DNA of 64,000 nucleotides, taken from the IMG/VR virus record IMGVR_UViG_3300013105_000843, positions 1-64,000 of that record; one strand, 5' to 3'. Positions within the stretch are counted from its first letter, which is position 1, and every line of letters starts with the position of its first letter. A model generated the notes under the pieces. That model ran no database searches. It had not been told where the DNA came from and worked only from the letters and a program-made list of their open reading frames with translations. Positions 7,485-18,183 of this stretch are shown here, piece after piece. The translations under genes were made by a program, and so were the position numbers. Source of the stretch: a virus (taxonomy: Duplodnaviria > Caudoviricetes).

Positions 7485-7571
7485 TGGTACCCAGAGAGGG
7501 GCTCGAACCCTCACGCCGTTGCCGGCACAGCGCCCTCAACGCTGCGCGTCTACCATTTCCGCCATCTGGGC
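7485..7571 (-). tRNA. tRNA-Leu(GAG)
   Basis: Cloverleaf, loop TT-GAG-GG, long V arm, encoded CCA. Confidence 0.93.
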
Positions 7572-7604
7572 AAAAAAGGCCGCTTGTCAGCGGCAAAAAT
7601 CATC

Positions 7605-7680
7605 TGGTGCCGGAGATAGGAGTCGAACCTACGACCTTCGCATTACGAATGCGCTGCTCTACCAACTGAGCTACGCCGGC
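7605..7680 (-). tRNA. tRNA-Thr(CGT)
   Basis: Canonical 76 nt, loop TT-CGT-AA, CCA. Confidence 0.95.
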
Positions 7681-7710
7681 GAATCCGGTCAGAAACCGGG
7701 GTAAATCTGG

Positions 7711-7788
7711 TGGTGCCGTCGGCGCGATTCGAACGCGCGGTCTCCGTCATACCAAGACGGCGCCTTAGACCAGCTGGGCTACGACGGC
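7711..7788 (-). tRNA. tRNA-Thr(GGT)
   Basis: CCGTC TT-GGT-AT GACGG, CCA. Confidence 0.92.
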
Positions 7789-7811
7789 GATGATGCAAAA
7801 TCCTGAGTTGC

Positions 7812-7988
7812 TTACAGCCTCTTCCACGCGCGCTTGGCGGCCTTGTCCTCCAGCTCGGCGGCCTTCAGTTGGGCCGCCGCATGCTGCAGGCGCTGCCACT
7901 GCGGGAACAACTCCGGCGTGACTTCCTTCAACACCTTGATGCGCGCGCGTGCTTTCTTAATCTGCTTGGCCAAGGACTGGTCCATCAT
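7812..7988 (-). CDS. Small hypothetical protein (58 aa)
   Basis: GGAGA RBS, MMDQSLAKQIKKARAR...KRL. Confidence 0.55.
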   Translation of the reverse strand: MMDQSLAKQIKKARARIKVLKEVTPELFPQWQRLQHAAAQLKAAELEDKAAKRAWKRL

Positions 7989-8321
7989 TCGTCTCCCGGC
8001 TGGTGCAGCAAGAACACAAGCCTGTCAATGAGTGCAGTATAACGCGCAATGCGTTAAACGCAACATCCAACAGGGTTGTGCAGCAGCCTGCTGCACAATT
8101 CACGCAGCCTGGGGACGGTCGGTGGGCTTGGCCGGCAGCAGATACTGGCGCGACGCCGCGAGGAATGCTTCGATGGTCTGCTTCATGCTGAATCTCCCTT
8201 TGTTATCAGCTTGATATCGTTGTAGGCGCGCGGCACCAACGGGCGTGATACCGGCCGATGTCGTTTGCGACACTGGTTGGTGGTTTCACGCCACTGAGAT
8301 TGCACGGCCGCGCGGGGAATC

Positions 8322-8397
8322 TGGTGCATCCTGGAGGCATCGAACCCCCGACCCTCGTCTTGTAAGGACGCCGCTCTACCAGCTGAGCTAAGGATGC
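8322..8397 (-). tRNA. tRNA-Val(TAC)
   Basis: Loop CT-TAC-AA, CCA. Confidence 0.93.
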
Positions 8398-8431
8398 AAA
8401 GAAGAAAACTTTGTACTACGAATAGAATTCA

Positions 8432-8548
8432 GGCAAAGACGTGAGGGATTCGAACCCTCCCTGCCCGCCCATTTCGCCGTGGCGTCGCCGGACAGCGACT
8501 CCCTCGGGTACTCCGGGCCGGAGTGCACAACCATGACACTTCGTCACC
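8432..8548 (-). ncRNA. tRNA-like RNA with replaced anticodon arm
   Basis: Perfect T arm GAGGG-TTCGAAT-CCCTC, D-like GTG-TCATGGTTGTG-CAC, bulged acceptor-like pairing, no anticodon loop or CCA. Confidence 0.5.
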
Positions 8549-8630
8549 ATCAGGCTGGCATGTCCGCGCCCACCTGAAGTCCTGAAACCTGTGGCGTATC
8601 GAGCGCCTTGCTGTCTCGGTTACAGCCAAT

Positions 8631-8720
8631 TGGCCGAGAGCCAGGGAGTCGAACCCTGTGACCTCGTTTCCGAAGCCTACGGATTAGCAATCCGCTGCAT
8701 TACCATCCTGCCCGCTCTCG
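8631..8720 (-). tRNA. tRNA-Ser(GCT)
   Basis: Loop TT-GCT-AA, long V arm, G73, CCA. Confidence 0.92.
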
Positions 8721-8732
8721 TCGTTAAAATCG

Positions 8733-8809
8733 TGGTGGAGAAAACGGGACTCGAACCCGTGGCCCCCGGATTATGAGTCCGGTGCTCTAACCAGCTGAGC
8801 TACATCTCC
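8733..8809 (-). tRNA. tRNA-CAT (elongator Met or Ile2)
   Basis: CCGGA CT-CAT-AA TCCGG, CCA. Met versus Ile2 cannot be resolved by eye. Confidence 0.88.
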
Positions 8810-8825
8810 AGGTACTGCGAATTCT

Positions 8826-9053
8826 TCAATCCTCGCCAATGTCCTGGAACAGACGTCGTTCCTGCATCGTGCGCTCGAGGAAGTATTTGCGGGGATTGCC
8901 GCACATCGCGCACGAACATCGTGCCGCGGTCGTGACGGTAATCCCCAGTTCGACCGGGCTCTGCGCGAGGTCCCTGCCGAAGTAATGCCGGCGGTTATGT
9001 TTCAGCCGCTCGATATGGTGGCGCCGAAGCGCGCGGGTCATGGGCTTGGCCAT
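8826..9053 (-). CDS. Small basic hypothetical protein with CSCxMCGNPR motif
   Basis: GGAGA RBS, 75 aa, Cys cluster. Confidence 0.75.
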   Translation of the reverse strand: MAKPMTRALRRHHIERLKHNRRHYFGRDLAQSPVELGITVTTAARCSCAMCGNPRKYFLERTMQERRLFQDIGED

Positions 9054-9182
9054 ACAGTCTCCGTAGAGTGTCGGCCGCCAGCTGTACAGGACCCTCCTGC
9101 ACTCTTATACGCTGACGGCCGGTCGTATGACCGCAGCCGACCAGTAATTCCGCACGTCAATCTCCCACGGACTACTGAAAAA

Positions 9183-9258
9183 TGGTGGAAACGACGGAAT
9201 TCGAATCCGTGACCTCCGCAATGCGAGTGCGGCGCTCTCCCAACTGAGCTACGTCCCC
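9183..9258 (-). tRNA. tRNA-Ala(CGC)
   Basis: G3:U70 pair, loop CT-CGC-AT, CCA. Confidence 0.94.
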
Positions 9259-9271
9259 AAGCAAGAAAATC

Positions 9272-9347
9272 TGGTGGAGGATACGGAAGTCGAATCCGTG
9301 ACCTCTTGCATGCCATGCAAGCGCTCTCCCAACTGAGCTAACCCCCC
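9272..9347 (-). tRNA. tRNA-Ala(GGC)
   Basis: G3:U70 pair, loop AT-GGC-AT, CCA. Confidence 0.94.
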
Positions 9348-9407
9348 AATGAGCCTTTGCGTACTGTGAAAAAACAACGCGGCGCAATGGCTTTGAAACG
9401 GTTGTTC

Positions 9408-9499
9408 TGGCGGAAAGGAGGGGATTCGAACCCCTGTAGGACATCGCTGCCCTCATCTGCATTCCAAGCAGCGCCATTCGACCTCTCTGGCACCTTTCC
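9408..9499 (-). tRNA. tRNA-Ser(GGA)
   Basis: Loop TT-GGA-AT, long V arm, GCCA end. Confidence 0.92.
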
Positions 9500-9506
9500 A
9501 TAAAAA

Positions 9507-9623
9507 CTGTTTCAGCGCCGGCCCCTGCGCAACAGAGTTCAGGTCTGTCCGCTTGAGCCCATCCGATTTCAGCAAAGGCCTACTGGATTCGGCCCCGCCT
9601 ACGTCCAACCGACGCCTACTCCG
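9507..9623 (-). ncRNA. Unclassified structured RNA, CGGAGUAG...UGAAAC family, copy A
   Basis: Conserved end motifs flanking stem GCGUCGG/CCGGCGC. Confidence 0.65.
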
Positions 9624-16947: not shown

Positions 16948-17020
16948 CATGGCAGGAGGGCATCGAACCCCCAACCTTCGGTTTTGGAGACCGGCGCTCT
17001 GCCAGTTGAGCTACTGCCAT
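16948..17020 (-). tRNA. tRNA-Trp(CCA), CCA end not encoded
   Basis: Loop CT-CCA-AA. Confidence 0.92.
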
Positions 17021-17051
17021 GCAATGTGCTTTTTTCGGTACTACGAATTAC

Positions 17052-17128
17052 TGGCAAGGGCGGAAGGATTTGAACCTTCGACACGCGGAATCAAAATCCG
17101 CTGCTCTACCGGACTGAGCTACACCCCC
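17052..17128 (-). tRNA. tRNA-Gln(TTG)
   Basis: Loop TT-TTG-AT, GCCA. Confidence 0.92.
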
Positions 17129-17158
17129 ACGGACAACGATGCTGCAATGAGCGCTTCG

Positions 17159-17244
17159 TGCGTCGAGCTAGATTCGAACTAGCGTGGCCACGTCGTGACA
17201 ACAGATTTACAGTCTGCCCCCTTCAGCCTCTCGGGCATCGACGC
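17159..17244 (-). tRNA. tRNA-Tyr(GTA), CCA not encoded
   Basis: Loop CT-GTA-AA, long V arm. Confidence 0.92.
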
Positions 17245-17274
17245 ACGAAGCGCTCACTACAGGTACATCAAATC

Positions 17275-17350
17275 TGGTACGTCCAGCAGGACTCGAACCT
17301 GCGACCCCCGCGTTCGTAGCACGGAACTCTTCCAACTGAGCTATGGACGT
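17275..17350 (-). tRNA. tRNA-Arg(ACG)
   Basis: Loop CT-ACG-AA, CCA. Confidence 0.93.
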
Positions 17351-17374
17351 ATTGTTGCGGATACAACGAAAATA

Positions 17375-17473
17375 TGGAGCCGGGATGCAGACTTGAACTG
17401 CGTGGGCGACGCCTGGGCTCCAAGTCGACGCTCTTATTGATTCGTACCGGCAGCCAGACCGGACTCTCCCGGC
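17375..17473 (-). ncRNA. tRNA-like RNA without a recognisable anticodon arm
   Basis: Acceptor GCCGGGA/TCCCGGC-TCCA, T arm GCAG-TTCAAGT-CTGC, non-canonical interior. Confidence 0.6.
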
Positions 17474-17486
17474 AAACAACGAAAAC

Positions 17487-17562
17487 TGGAGCGGGAAACG
17501 AGCTTCGAACTCGCGACCTCCACCTTGGCAAGGTGGCGCTCTACCAACTGAGCTATTCCCGC
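17487..17562 (-). tRNA. tRNA-Gly(GCC)
   Basis: Canonical, loop TT-GCC-AA, TCCA. Confidence 0.96.
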
Positions 17563-17580
17563 GGTGTACTGCGATGAAAC

Positions 17581-17656
17581 TGGCCGCCGACGAAGGGAAT
17601 CGAACCCTCATGGAACGGATAGACAATCCGCTGACCTACCAATGGCCCACGTCGGC
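17581..17656 (-). tRNA. tRNA-Asp(GTC)
   Basis: Loop TT-GTC-TA, one extra G before CCA. Confidence 0.85.
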
Positions 17657-17691
17657 AAAATCTGCACTACTAATAAAGCAATTTTCAATGC

Positions 17692-17766
17692 TGGAGTGCC
17701 CCACCGGAGTCGAACCGGTCTGAGTCGGATTTGCAATCCGGCGCCTGGCCGCTCAGCCAGAGGCAC
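17692..17766 (-). tRNA. tRNA-Cys(GCA)
   Basis: Loop TT-GCA-AA, U73, CCA. Confidence 0.93.
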
Positions 17767-17778
17767 AGCGAAAACGGT

Positions 17779-17855
17779 TGGTAGTGGACGTAGGATTCGA
17801 ACCTATCTGCCTCTCGCTTATCAAGCGAGTGCTCATCCAGATGAGCTTGTCCACC
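17779..17855 (-). tRNA. tRNA-Ile(GAT)
   Basis: Loop TT-GAT-AA, CCA. Confidence 0.9.
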
Positions 17856-17883
17856 ACGGTGCAACGGTGCAACGGTGCAACGG
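17856..17883. repeat. 8-bp tandem repeat (ACGGTGCA)x3.5
   Basis: Directly visible in the spacer. Confidence 0.85.
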
Positions 17884-17895
17884 ACCAACGAAAAC

Positions 17896-17969
17896 TGGAG
17901 CGGGTATCGGGAATCGAACCCGAGTGTTCAGCTTGGAAGGCTGCTGCTCTACCATTGAGCTACACCCGC
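17896..17969 (-). tRNA. tRNA-Gly(TCC)
   Basis: Loop CT-TCC-AA, TCCA. Confidence 0.94.
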
Positions 17970-17984
17970 ATGGAAATCCTTCAT

Positions 17985-18089
17985 CGCTGCCCGCTGGATT
18001 TGAACCAGCGCTGACGGGCGCCCGCCACCTGGAATGGATACCAGTCTCCCTCTGCAATGAGGTGCTCTACCAGCCTGAGCTAGAGCAGC
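17985..18089 (-). ncRNA. tRNA-like RNA with 6-nt anticodon loop and two-hairpin variable region
   Basis: Canonical D and T arms, CCTC-ATTGCA-GAGG, extra hairpins, no CCA. Confidence 0.6.
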
Positions 18090-18105
18090 GATGAAGAATC
18101 GTGAA

Positions 18106-18183
18106 TGGTGCCGTCGGCGTAGATTCGAACTCGCGACCCGCCGCCTACAATGCGGCCGCTCTACCGGGCTGAGCTACGACGGC
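18106..18183 (-). tRNA. tRNA-Thr(TGT)
   Basis: Loop AT-TGT-AG, CCA, bulge in T stem. Confidence 0.88.

What the first reader, a model, noticed from the sequence alone, without database searches (positions are those of the whole stretch)
7485..18183. Complete tRNA array (all 20 amino acids) on a conjugative element
Seen: about 34 near-canonical tRNAs plus 7 tRNA-like genes, all on the minus strand, interleaved with ncRNAs, small basic ORFs and two nucleases, directly beside traD/traT. Established: tRNA arrays with HNH genes occur on large plasmids and phages. Inference: together with the gated release factor, tmRNA/SmpB and the attenuator, this forms an inducible back-up translation system, for example against anticodon nucleases or translation-targeting toxins.
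Basis: partly seen in the sequence, partly recalled or inferred. Interest (0 to 1): 0.7.

Follow-up and report, generated by a model that had tools for sequence, protein, structure and literature searches.

The report
Gated spare-tRNA array on conjugative megaplasmid
A large transferable plasmid-like element of a soil-type betaproteobacterium carries a real spare set of 33 tRNA genes (all 20 amino acids) with a giant GOLLD RNA; this kind of island is already described, and the less ordinary part is a conserved switch that should turn it on when protein synthesis falters.

Summary
ARAGORN finds 33 tRNA genes on the minus strand at 7485-18183: 3.1 per kb, all 20 amino acids, 32 anticodons. Also present are three tRNA-like genes above Rfam's threshold, one weak one, a ~900-nt GOLLD RNA, four copies of an uncatalogued small RNA, an HNH gene and an endonuclease-I-like gene. 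F-type traD and traT lie directly upstream.

This is a known kind: a horizontally spread long tRNA array. Complete arrays are published for related Variovorax megaplasmids, and GOLLD plus HNH inside arrays for mycobacteria. This scan has already reported the same kind on other DNA (e1-5483692, e1-5483708, e1-5328018).

The set is not a full decoding set. It reads 52-54 of 61 sense codons and misses CGG, AGA, AGG, AUA, UUA, CUA and UCA.

"Inducible" has in-silico support. A consensus promoter, a 60-codon leader ORF using all 20 amino acids and a terminator/antiterminator pair head the array. The terminator and its complementary ORF segment are seen in all 8 loci folded, and the all-20 ORF in 10 of 11.

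The element also encodes an HD-Pnk plus RNA-ligase repair pair, SmpB, a two-piece tmRNA, an RNase R-like enzyme and a short release factor. The back-up or anti-nuclease reading is plausible but untested.

The parts
20851..21480 (-). traT (surface-exclusion lipoprotein)
   Evidence: Pfam TraT 229.7 bits, full length
18876..20813 (-). traD, F-type type IV coupling protein, directly upstream of the array
   Evidence: Pfam TrwB_AAD_bind 370.9 bits. NCBIfam TraD_Ftype 312.7 bits, below its equivalog cut-off. Homologues at 64-66% identity sit upstream of the same leader and array in 5 other elements.
18707..18734 (-). Promoter P1, TTGACA-16-TATACT
   Evidence: 11 of 12 consensus matches. It is one of only two such sites in the 129.5-kb contig, with 0 expected by chance. 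It is conserved in L011, L012, L063, L065 and L066.
18464..18645 (-). Leader ORF, 60 codons, using all 20 amino acids
   Evidence: Read from the sequence. 10 of 11 related loci have a 54-66-codon ORF with all 20 amino acids in the same place, against 3.4% of 60-residue windows in the element's own proteins.
18400..18495 (-). Attenuator: antiterminator strand inside the ORF's 3' end (about 18479-18495) and terminator hairpin T1 with U-run (18400-18440)
   Evidence: With the ORF 3' end included, the minimum-energy fold is the antiterminator (-41.2 kcal/mol). Without it, the fold is the terminator (-28.4 kcal/mol). The terminator and the complementary ORF segment are present in all 8 loci folded; the antiterminator is the minimum-energy fold in 3 of them.
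18245..18385 (-). Conserved leader RNA block of unknown role, ending in a second terminator-like hairpin T2 (18245-18265)
   Evidence: Near-invariant block in three elements (alignment A2). A 28-nt motif from it retrieved 9 metagenome contigs, 8 with a tRNA array immediately downstream. T2 was found. No Rfam match.
16947..18183 (-). First tRNA block: Thr-TGT, tRNA-like (17985-18089), Gly-TCC, Ile, Cys, Asp, Gly-GCC, Arg-ACG, Tyr, Gln, Trp
16618..16692 (-). tRNA-Glu (TTC); a weak tRNA-like hit lies upstream at 16857-16929
15794..16606 (-). Endonuclease-I-like (phage-type) nuclease gene
   Evidence: Pfam Phage_endo_I 42.1 bits. PHROG endonuclease families. The first in-frame start after tRNA-Glu is at 16606. 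Not conserved in relatives.
15648..15815 (-). tRNA-Phe, tRNA-Pro (CGG)
15299..15628 (-). Small phage-type protein of unknown function (109 aa)
   Evidence: GC3 0.82; phrog_18490, E 2e-23
13003..15287 (-). tRNAs His, Lys-TTT, Asn, Ala-TGC, Lys-CTT, tRNA-like (13666-13778), Pro-TGG, Leu-CAG, Leu-CAA
12353..12928 (-). HNH homing-type endonuclease
   Evidence: Pfam HNH and HNH_5, about 51 bits. PHROG HNH families. Absent from relatives' arrays.
11514..11600 (-). tRNA-Ser (CGA), no encoded CCA
11166..11493 (-). Three tandem copies of an uncatalogued small RNA: GGAGUA, closing helix, GAAAC
   Evidence: Each copy has a 5-11-bp closing helix of different sequence. Three more copies lie in the Novimethylophilus array.
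10993..11069 (-). tRNA-Pro (GGG) with C33
   Evidence: The same C33 is present in the Achromobacter element's Pro-GGG.
10946..10973 (-). Promoter P2, TTGACA-16-TATACT with TG, upstream of GOLLD
   Evidence: Not found in the relatives with the same pattern.
9735..10655 (-). GOLLD RNA, about 900 nt, with embedded pseudo-tRNA (10104-10173)
   Evidence: Rfam RF02032 at 9775-10239, 189.6 bits. The 5' domain is conserved at the nucleotide level, with indels, in two relatives (alignment A1). tblastn of the overlapping 'ORF' breaks frame.
9183..9706 (-). Initiator-like tRNA-Met (C1 opposite A72), fourth small-RNA copy (9507-9623), tRNAs Ser-GGA, Ala-GGC, Ala-CGC
8826..9053 (-). T5.055-like small protein (75 aa), a recurrent companion of phage tRNA islands
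   Evidence: phrog_4499, E 8e-19. 50-58% identical copies in both relatives' arrays. Homologues lie inside the tRNA islands of T5-like and Rhizobium phages.
7485..8809 (-). tRNAs Met, Ser-GCT, Val, a 58-aa ORF (7812-7988), then Thr-GGT, Thr-CGT, Leu-GAG

Best explanation
This is a horizontally spread long tRNA array of phage-island make-up. It is built into the backbone of a family of betaproteobacterial conjugative megaplasmids, just downstream of traD. It most likely serves as a conditionally expressed spare tRNA supply.

Proposed mechanism. A strong sigma-70-type promoter drives a 60-codon leader ORF that needs every kind of aminoacyl-tRNA. When ribosomes finish that ORF, they cover the segment that would otherwise pair with the terminator's 5' arm. 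The terminator then forms and the array stays off. When ribosomes stall or fail anywhere in the leader, the antiterminator forms and transcription runs into the tRNA genes. Causes could be tRNA cleavage by anticodon nucleases or toxins, starvation, or translation inhibitors.

The new tRNAs average about 74% identity to a related host's isoacceptors. They would replace or dilute damaged host tRNAs. Meanwhile the element's HD-Pnk and RNA ligase would heal cut RNAs, and its tmRNA, SmpB, RNase R-like enzyme and short release factor would clear stalled ribosomes.

Shown here: the genes, their intact identity features, the conserved architecture and the alternative RNA folds. Inferred: expression, the trigger, and any protective effect. 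The role of GOLLD and of the small RNAs is unknown.
For: Real, dense, single-copy set: 33 tRNAs, all 20 amino acids.

Likely functional genes. 30 of 33 encode CCA. All three Ala genes keep G3:U70, His keeps G-1:C73, and one Met gene keeps the initiator C1xA72 mismatch.

Divergent from housekeeping tRNAs. Mean identity to Achromobacter chromosomal isoacceptors is 74%. That genome's own element array is equally distant from its chromosome.

Gating. P1 is one of two consensus promoters in 129.5 kb, with 0 expected by chance. The terminator/antiterminator pair is seen; the terminator and its complementary ORF segment recur in all 8 loci folded. An all-20-amino-acid leader ORF is present in 10 of 11 loci, against a 3.4% background.

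Conserved architecture. traD, leader and array occur in that order in Novimethylophilus, Achromobacter and metagenome contigs of 172-572 kb.

Same-element partners. HD domain plus T4-Pnk-like kinase sits next to an RNA ligase, and both are conserved in relatives. SmpB and tmRNA, an RNase R-like gene and a domain-1-less RF1-like factor are also present.

Precedent. The Anabaena long array is induced more than 100-fold by translational stress and aids survival (PMC8421152). Phage tRNAs neutralise PARIS and retron tRNA nucleases (PMC11464382 and PMC11555353, abstracts).
Against: There are no expression or phenotype data for this family.

The set cannot stand alone. It has no tRNA for CGG (19.5 per 1000 codons of the element), AGA, AGG, AUA, UUA, CUA or UCA.

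In 5 of the 8 loci the computed minimum-energy fold is still the terminator, even with the upstream segment included.

Unusual anticodon loops are more frequent in the arrays than in 53 chromosomal tRNAs. Non-U33 occurs in 8 of 193 array tRNAs and pyrimidine-37 in 5 of 193, against 0 of 53 for each. The numbers are too small to show selection, and they could equally mean decay.

The Variovorax authors judged their plasmid tRNAs redundant and not essential (PMC7313664).

A second conserved leader element and terminator are unexplained.

No tRNA-targeting nuclease was looked for, and the host is unknown.
Confidence: 0.5

Rival explanations
1. Translation-capacity or cost-offset module. The array simply adds tRNA supply so that a plasmid of several hundred genes does not drain the host's pool. 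It has no link to defence or damage. The leader would tune tRNA output to demand, rising when charged tRNA is short.
For: The anticodons favour the G/C-ending codons that the element uses. The set covers 93-97% of the element's codon usage. A benefit to expression was proposed for a Bifidobacterium megaplasmid, as cited in PMC7313664. A leader that senses slow decoding fits demand-tuning just as well.
Against: There is one copy per anticodon, not weighting towards heavily used codons. The tRNAs are about 26% diverged from a related host's isoacceptors. Co-carriage of an RNA repair pair, tmRNA, SmpB and an RNase R-like gene points to damage rather than load.
Confidence: 0.2
2. Mostly selfish or neutral cargo. 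On this view the array is a phage-derived tRNA island. Homing endonucleases and recombination shuffle and spread it, and it persists without much benefit to plasmid or host.
For: tRNA order is scrambled between relatives. The HNH and endonuclease-I genes are not conserved. Phage-type small ORFs are present, including a T5.055 homologue. Degenerate tRNA-likes and odd anticodon loops occur. The published view is that such arrays are dispensable.
Against: The promoter, leader ORF, attenuator and position after traD are conserved between elements whose TraD proteins are only 64-66% identical. Identity elements and CCA ends are retained in nearly all genes. Every array keeps near-full amino-acid coverage despite the shuffling.
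Confidence: 0.2
3. Immunity to the element's own weapon. The plasmid or its host makes a tRNA-cleaving toxin used against competitors or for addiction. The array, with the repair enzymes, protects carrier cells.
For: The only support is context. RNA repair genes and divergent tRNAs are present on the same element.
Against: I did not search for a tRNA-targeting toxin on the element, and none turned up among the roughly 60 proteins scanned.
Confidence: 0.07

Closest known systems
tRNA-carrying conjugative megaplasmids of Variovorax (pPBL-H6-1, pSRS16-1, pPBL-E5-1, pWDL1-1; Ozturk et al. 2020, PMC7313664)
   Same: Betaproteobacterial host and about 62-63% GC. F-like tra genes. One array with tRNAs for all amino acids. 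These plasmids hold the closest TraD in PLSDB (53% identity). HD-Pnk, RNA ligase and SmpB homologues are present.
   Different: In pPBL-H6-1 the main array lies at 763-780 kb, far from traD at 211 kb, and no GOLLD is found. The paper describes no leader, attenuator or small RNAs.
Long tRNA arrays (L-arrays), especially the Anabaena PCC 7120 plasmid trn operon (Santamaria-Gomez et al. 2021, PMC8421152)
   Same: Supernumerary and horizontally spread. Associated with an HNH endonuclease. Proposed here, and shown there, to be an inducible subset used under translational stress.
   Different: Anabaena uses promoter-level repression through direct repeats. Here the predicted control is a leader-peptide transcription attenuator. 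The phylum and vector also differ.
Mycobacterial tRNA array units with GOLLD and HNH (Morgado & Vicente 2018, PMC5966550; Behra et al. 2019, PMC6582537)
   Same: About 32 or more tRNAs. GOLLD sits inside the array and carries a pseudo-tRNA. An HNH gene is present. The arrays lie on plasmids, prophages or phages.
   Different: Actinobacterial hosts. No traD linkage or leader ORF is reported in the passages I read.
Phage T5-type tRNA islands
   Same: tRNAs are interleaved with small ORFs (a T5.055 homologue is present here), homing endonucleases and stable tRNA-sized RNAs (RNA I and RNA III). An anti-defence role is shown for T5 tRNAs (PMC11464382, PMC11555353).
   Different: T5 is a lytic phage, not a conjugative element. 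T5 RNA I and III do not carry the GGAGUA...GAAAC motif.
Acidithiobacillus ICE-borne tRNA array (Tran et al. 2016, PMC4758250; Alamos et al. 2018, cited in PMC7313664)
   Same: A tRNA array unit on an integrative conjugative element.
   Different: Different class of bacteria. I made no sequence comparison here.

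Membership tests
tRNA array unit (Tran et al. 2016) | At least 20 tRNA genes at a density of at least 2 per kb (definition in the abstract of PMC4758250) | tested here: met
   33 genes in 10,699 bp, or 3.1 per kb
L-array (Santamaria-Gomez et al. 2021) | Long array, supernumerary to the housekeeping set, spread horizontally | tested here: met
   The array lies on a mobile element. Related arrays occur in three families of Betaproteobacteria. In Achromobacter the element adds about 53 tRNA hits to about 50 chromosomal ones.
L-array (Santamaria-Gomez et al. 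2021) | Silent normally, induced by translational stress | not testable with these tools
   Only a predicted attenuator is available. There are no expression data.
GOLLD RNA (Rfam RF02032) | Score above the curated gathering threshold over the full model | tested here: met
   189.6 bits against a cut-off of 150, model positions 1-416. Relatives score 174.8 and 165.3 bits.
GOLLD RNA (Rfam RF02032) | Forms a 14-mer nanocage (PMC12286853) | not testable with these tools
   No structure prediction for RNA multimers is available here.
Leader-peptide transcription attenuator (trpL/hisL type) | Promoter, short translated ORF, intrinsic terminator, and an alternative antiterminator whose formation depends on ribosome position | tested here: met
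   All four parts are present in the sequence and in computed folds. The terminator and the complementary segment recur in 8 loci. Translation of the ORF is not shown.
Leader-peptide transcription attenuator (trpL/hisL type) | Run of regulatory codons for the amino acid that is sensed | tested here: not met
   There is no codon run. Instead every amino acid occurs at least once. It works like an attenuator but is not a member of the amino-acid-specific class.
Anti-defence tRNAs (T5 type) | tRNA variant resists a defined tRNA nuclease and rescues translation | not testable with these tools
   Only sequence divergence and a few unusual anticodon loops were seen.
Conjugative element | Coupling protein, mating-pair formation genes and a relaxase | tested here: inconclusive
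   TraD and TraT are present. No relaxase or VirB4-type ATPase was found among the proteins I scanned on this 129.5-kb fragment. Relatives are 172-839 kb. IMG/VR labels the record a provirus, but I saw no phage structural gene.
HD-Pnk / RNA ligase end-healing and sealing cassette | HD phosphoesterase fused to a 5'-OH polynucleotide kinase, next to an ATP-dependent RNA ligase | tested here: met
   HD plus AAA_33 domains, with T4 Pnk (1ly1, 1ltq) as the best solved match for the kinase part. The adjacent gene is Pfam RNA_ligase at 91.4 bits. No activity has been tested.

The most novel reading that the evidence does not exclude
The array may be the output arm of a plasmid-borne regulon that senses translation failure. 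In this reading, a leader peptide using all 20 amino acids reports a shortage of any tRNA, for example after attack by an anticodon nuclease in a new recipient. It then switches on a replacement tRNA set together with a GOLLD cage RNA and a new family of small RNAs. Repair enzymes (HD-Pnk, RNA ligase) and rescue factors (tmRNA, SmpB, an RNase R-like enzyme and a release factor lacking domain 1) on the same backbone complete a self-contained system. That system would let a megaplasmid establish itself in hosts that defend by shutting down translation.
Probability: 0.3. Interest if true: 0.8.

Novelty: new variant of a known kind. Interest (0 to 1): 0.5.

Why it matters
What long tRNA arrays on mobile DNA are for is still an open question. 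This family offers a clean handle on it. Its conserved leader-peptide switch differs from the only control mechanism described for such arrays, the promoter repeats of Anabaena. The switch can be tested with reporter fusions. The array sits in a transfer region beside RNA repair and ribosome-rescue genes. If the gating holds, it ties spare tRNAs, GOLLD RNA and RNA repair to one stimulus. It would also extend the phage idea of tRNAs as counter-defence to conjugative plasmids. The array on its own is a further example of something already published.

Tried and rejected
- Near-identical DNA in PLSDB and INPHARED. Only single-tRNA hits came back, so no close sequenced relative exists there.
- Relatives of a virus record cannot be drawn by the genome search. 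A TraD scan of viral contigs found nothing, and the leader motif found nothing there either.
- The 375-aa ORF at 15794-16921 is rejected as drawn, because it runs through tRNA-Glu. The real gene starts at or after 16606.
- ORFs 10260-10631, 10641-10976, 11973-12293 and 18274-18621 have no family match and no coding GC3 signal. The first is the GOLLD 5' domain.
- A fifth GGAGUA...GAAAC instance at 51324-51384 has no closing helix (z = 0.23) and is taken as chance.
- T5 RNA I and RNA III were checked as possible homologues of the small RNAs. They lack the motif.
- A tiny ORF over terminator T2 is not conserved; AUG becomes AAG in Achromobacter.
- The RNA ligase has no sequence match in the PDB. 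NCBIfam names neither the ligase nor HD-Pnk.
- The Morgado 2020 GOLLD paper is not in the held library.
- No paper combining leader peptide, attenuation and tRNA gene cluster was found.

Full report
**1. What is there**

The window is the first 64 kb of a 129,556-bp record at about 63% GC. IMG/VR classes the record as a provirus.

ARAGORN finds 33 tRNA genes, all on the minus strand, from 7485 to 18183. It finds none elsewhere on the contig. They cover all 20 amino acids with 32 anticodons. At 3.1 genes per kb the cluster meets the published definition of a tRNA array unit (PMC4758250).

Rfam's tRNA model recovers the same 33 at 31-71 bits. It adds three tRNA-like genes above threshold and one weak hit:
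- 13666-13778 has acceptor, D and T arms and a CCA end, but about 40 extra bases in the anticodon arm.
- 17985-18089 has two extra hairpins in the variable region and a 6-nt anticodon loop.
- 10104-10173 lies inside GOLLD.
- 16857-16929 is the weak hit.

**2. Are the tRNAs likely to work?**

Thirty of the 33 encode CCA. All three tRNA-Ala genes keep G3:U70, tRNA-His keeps G-1:C73, and one tRNA-Met keeps the initiator C1xA72 mismatch.

They are not copies of housekeeping genes. Mean identity to the same isoacceptors on the Achromobacter anxifer chromosome is 74%. Identity to the arrays of two related elements is 73% and 67%.

The set reads 52 of 61 sense codons under strict wobble, or 54 if U34 reads whole boxes. 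That is 93-97% of the element's codon usage. It lacks tRNAs for CGG (19.5 per 1000 codons), AGA, AGG, AUA, UUA, CUA and UCA. 'Complete' therefore holds for amino acids, not for codons.

A few anticodon loops are unusual. Examples are C33 in Pro-GGG, shared with the Achromobacter element, and U37 in Asp. Across the arrays, non-U33 occurs in 8 of 193 tRNAs against 0 of 53 chromosomal ones. The numbers are too small to interpret.

**3. Other contents of the array**

GOLLD scores 189.6 bits at 9775-10239. Alignment with two relatives shows nucleotide conservation, with indels, over about 9735-10655. The RNA is therefore about 900 nt long, and the 123-codon 'ORF' at 10260-10631 is its 5' domain.

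Four copies of a small RNA lie at 9507-9623, 11166-11258, 11312-11401 and 11408-11493. They share invariant GGAGUA and GAAAC ends around a 5-11-bp closing helix whose sequence differs in each copy. Three more copies sit between tRNAs in the Novimethylophilus array. Rfam has no match.

The HNH gene (12353-12928) and the endonuclease-I-like gene (15794-16606) are confirmed, but they are absent from the relatives' arrays.

Two small proteins belong to phage families. ORF 8826-9053 is a T5.055 homologue. Its relatives lie inside the tRNA islands of T5-like and Rhizobium phages.

**4. Context**

F-type traD and traT lie immediately upstream on the same strand. A signal-peptidase-I-like gene follows the array.

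The same element also encodes:
- SmpB and a permuted tmRNA;
- a short RF1-like release factor lacking domain 1, read across a CTT-TGA-C site;
- GyrB- and GyrA-like genes;
- dUTPase, NAD-dependent DNA ligase, an RNR-like gene, RuvB, RdgC and a ParM-like gene;
- an RNase R-like enzyme.

Most relevant is a pair of adjacent genes at 89288-91552 on the contig. One is an HD phosphoesterase fused to a T4-Pnk-like kinase. The other is an RNA ligase. Together they form an end-healing and sealing pair. Homologues of both, and of SmpB, lie on the related elements, including the Variovorax megaplasmid.

**5. Relatives**

TraD at 64% identity leads to Novimethylophilus kurashikiensis and Achromobacter anxifer. 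In both, a same-strand array starts just after traD. Novimethylophilus has 38 tRNAs. Achromobacter has 55 tRNA calls, three with aberrant anticodons, plus a tmRNA. Each array contains one GOLLD. tRNA order is not conserved between them.

A 28-nt motif from the leader retrieved 9 metagenome contigs of up to 572 kb. In 8 of them an array beginning with tRNA-Thr(TGT), as here, follows at once. TraD at 64-66% identity lies upstream wherever sequence is available.

The nearest PLSDB relatives are the published tRNA-carrying Variovorax megaplasmids, with TraD at 53% identity. Their array is elsewhere on the plasmid and has no GOLLD.

**6. Regulation**

The contig has only two near-consensus TTGACA-N16-TATACT promoters, and both are in the array. 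P1 lies at 18734-18707 and P2 at 10973-10946, upstream of GOLLD. None is expected by chance.

P1 is followed by a 60-codon ORF (18645-18464) that contains all 20 amino acids. After it comes a GC-rich hairpin with a U-run (18440-18400).

The last part of the ORF is complementary to the hairpin's 5' arm and loop. With that part included, the minimum-energy fold is the antiterminator. Without it, the fold is the terminator.

The terminator and the complementary segment are conserved in all 8 related loci folded. In 3 of them the antiterminator is the minimum-energy fold. In 10 of 11 loci a 54-66-codon ORF with all 20 amino acids occupies the same place. Only 3.4% of 60-residue windows in the element's proteins have that property.

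A second, strongly conserved RNA block and a second terminator-like hairpin (18385-18245) follow and remain unexplained.

**7. Comparison with what is known**

- Complete tRNA arrays on conjugative betaproteobacterial megaplasmids are published (PMC7313664).
- Long arrays with an HNH gene occur in many phyla. The Anabaena array is induced by translational stress and aids survival, but it is controlled by promoter repeats (PMC8421152).
- GOLLD with an internal pseudo-tRNA plus HNH inside 32-tRNA clusters is described for mycobacteria (PMC6582537). GOLLD forms a 14-mer cage, and its authors speculate that it handles tRNAs (PMC12286853).
- Phage tRNAs defeat tRNA-cleaving defences (PMC11464382, PMC11555353).
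- This scan has already reported the same kind of island on other DNA (e1-5483692, e1-5483708, e1-5328018).
- I found no paper that describes a leader-peptide attenuator in front of a tRNA array, but the held library is incomplete.

**8. Verdict**

The array is a gated spare tRNA supply set among RNA-repair and ribosome-rescue genes, but the set is incomplete for codons. The trigger and the benefit are inferred, not shown.

As an object the array is a further member of a known kind. The predicted control mechanism and the traD-linked architecture make it a new variant.

Noticed in passing
G000 contig 89288-91552 (L016:6288-8552), outside the window: An HD phosphoesterase fused to a T4-Pnk-like kinase lies directly next to a Pfam RNA_ligase gene. 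This looks like an RNA end-healing and sealing pair. Homologues are present in the Novimethylophilus, Achromobacter (ligase only) and Variovorax elements.
   Followed up: partly
window 9507-9623, 11166-11493; L011:7309-7719: Seven copies of a tRNA-sized RNA have invariant GGAGUA and GAAAC ends around a covarying 5-11-bp helix. They occupy tRNA slots in two arrays and are absent from Rfam. The leader block at 18300-18330 carries the same two words in the opposite order around a hairpin.
   Followed up: partly
window 18245-18385: A near-invariant leader RNA block lies between the attenuator and the first tRNA. It is conserved in at least 11 contigs, ends in a second terminator-like hairpin, and has no known family or role.
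   Followed up: partly
L012:17904-17977 and 18333-18406; L011:14417-14492: ARAGORN calls tRNAs with irregular anticodons (2-nt 'at', 4-nt 'cccc', 4-nt 'tgat') in the relatives' arrays. The 'cccc' case resembles quadruplet-reading frameshift suppressors; that resemblance is from my own knowledge.
   Followed up: no
L060, L061, L063-L066 (metagenome arrays): tRNA-Cys (86 nt), tRNA-Gly-TCC (85-87 nt) and one tRNA-Gln (82 nt) are much longer than usual for these amino acids. This suggests long variable arms. The window's odd 105-nt tRNA-like with a GCA triplet (17985-18089) may be related.
   Followed up: no
L012:14232-14689: The Achromobacter anxifer element carries a one-piece tmRNA inside its tRNA array. 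The window's element instead has a permuted two-piece tmRNA 45 kb away from the array.
   Followed up: no
window 1-679: The release-factor gene lacks domain 1 (about 210 aa in all). It is split by a CTT-TGA-C site like the prfB frameshift. Its best NCBIfam match is RF1, with a weaker match to PrfH, which also lacks domain 1.
   Followed up: partly
window 22579-29409: The element encodes its own GyrB/ParE-like and GyrA/ParC-like type II topoisomerase subunits, just upstream of traT on the opposite strand.
   Followed up: no
whole record: IMG/VR labels the record a provirus. However, I saw tra genes, a ParM-like partition gene and replication or repair genes, and no phage structural gene. It looks like a fragment of a conjugative megaplasmid or ICE.
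   Followed up: partly
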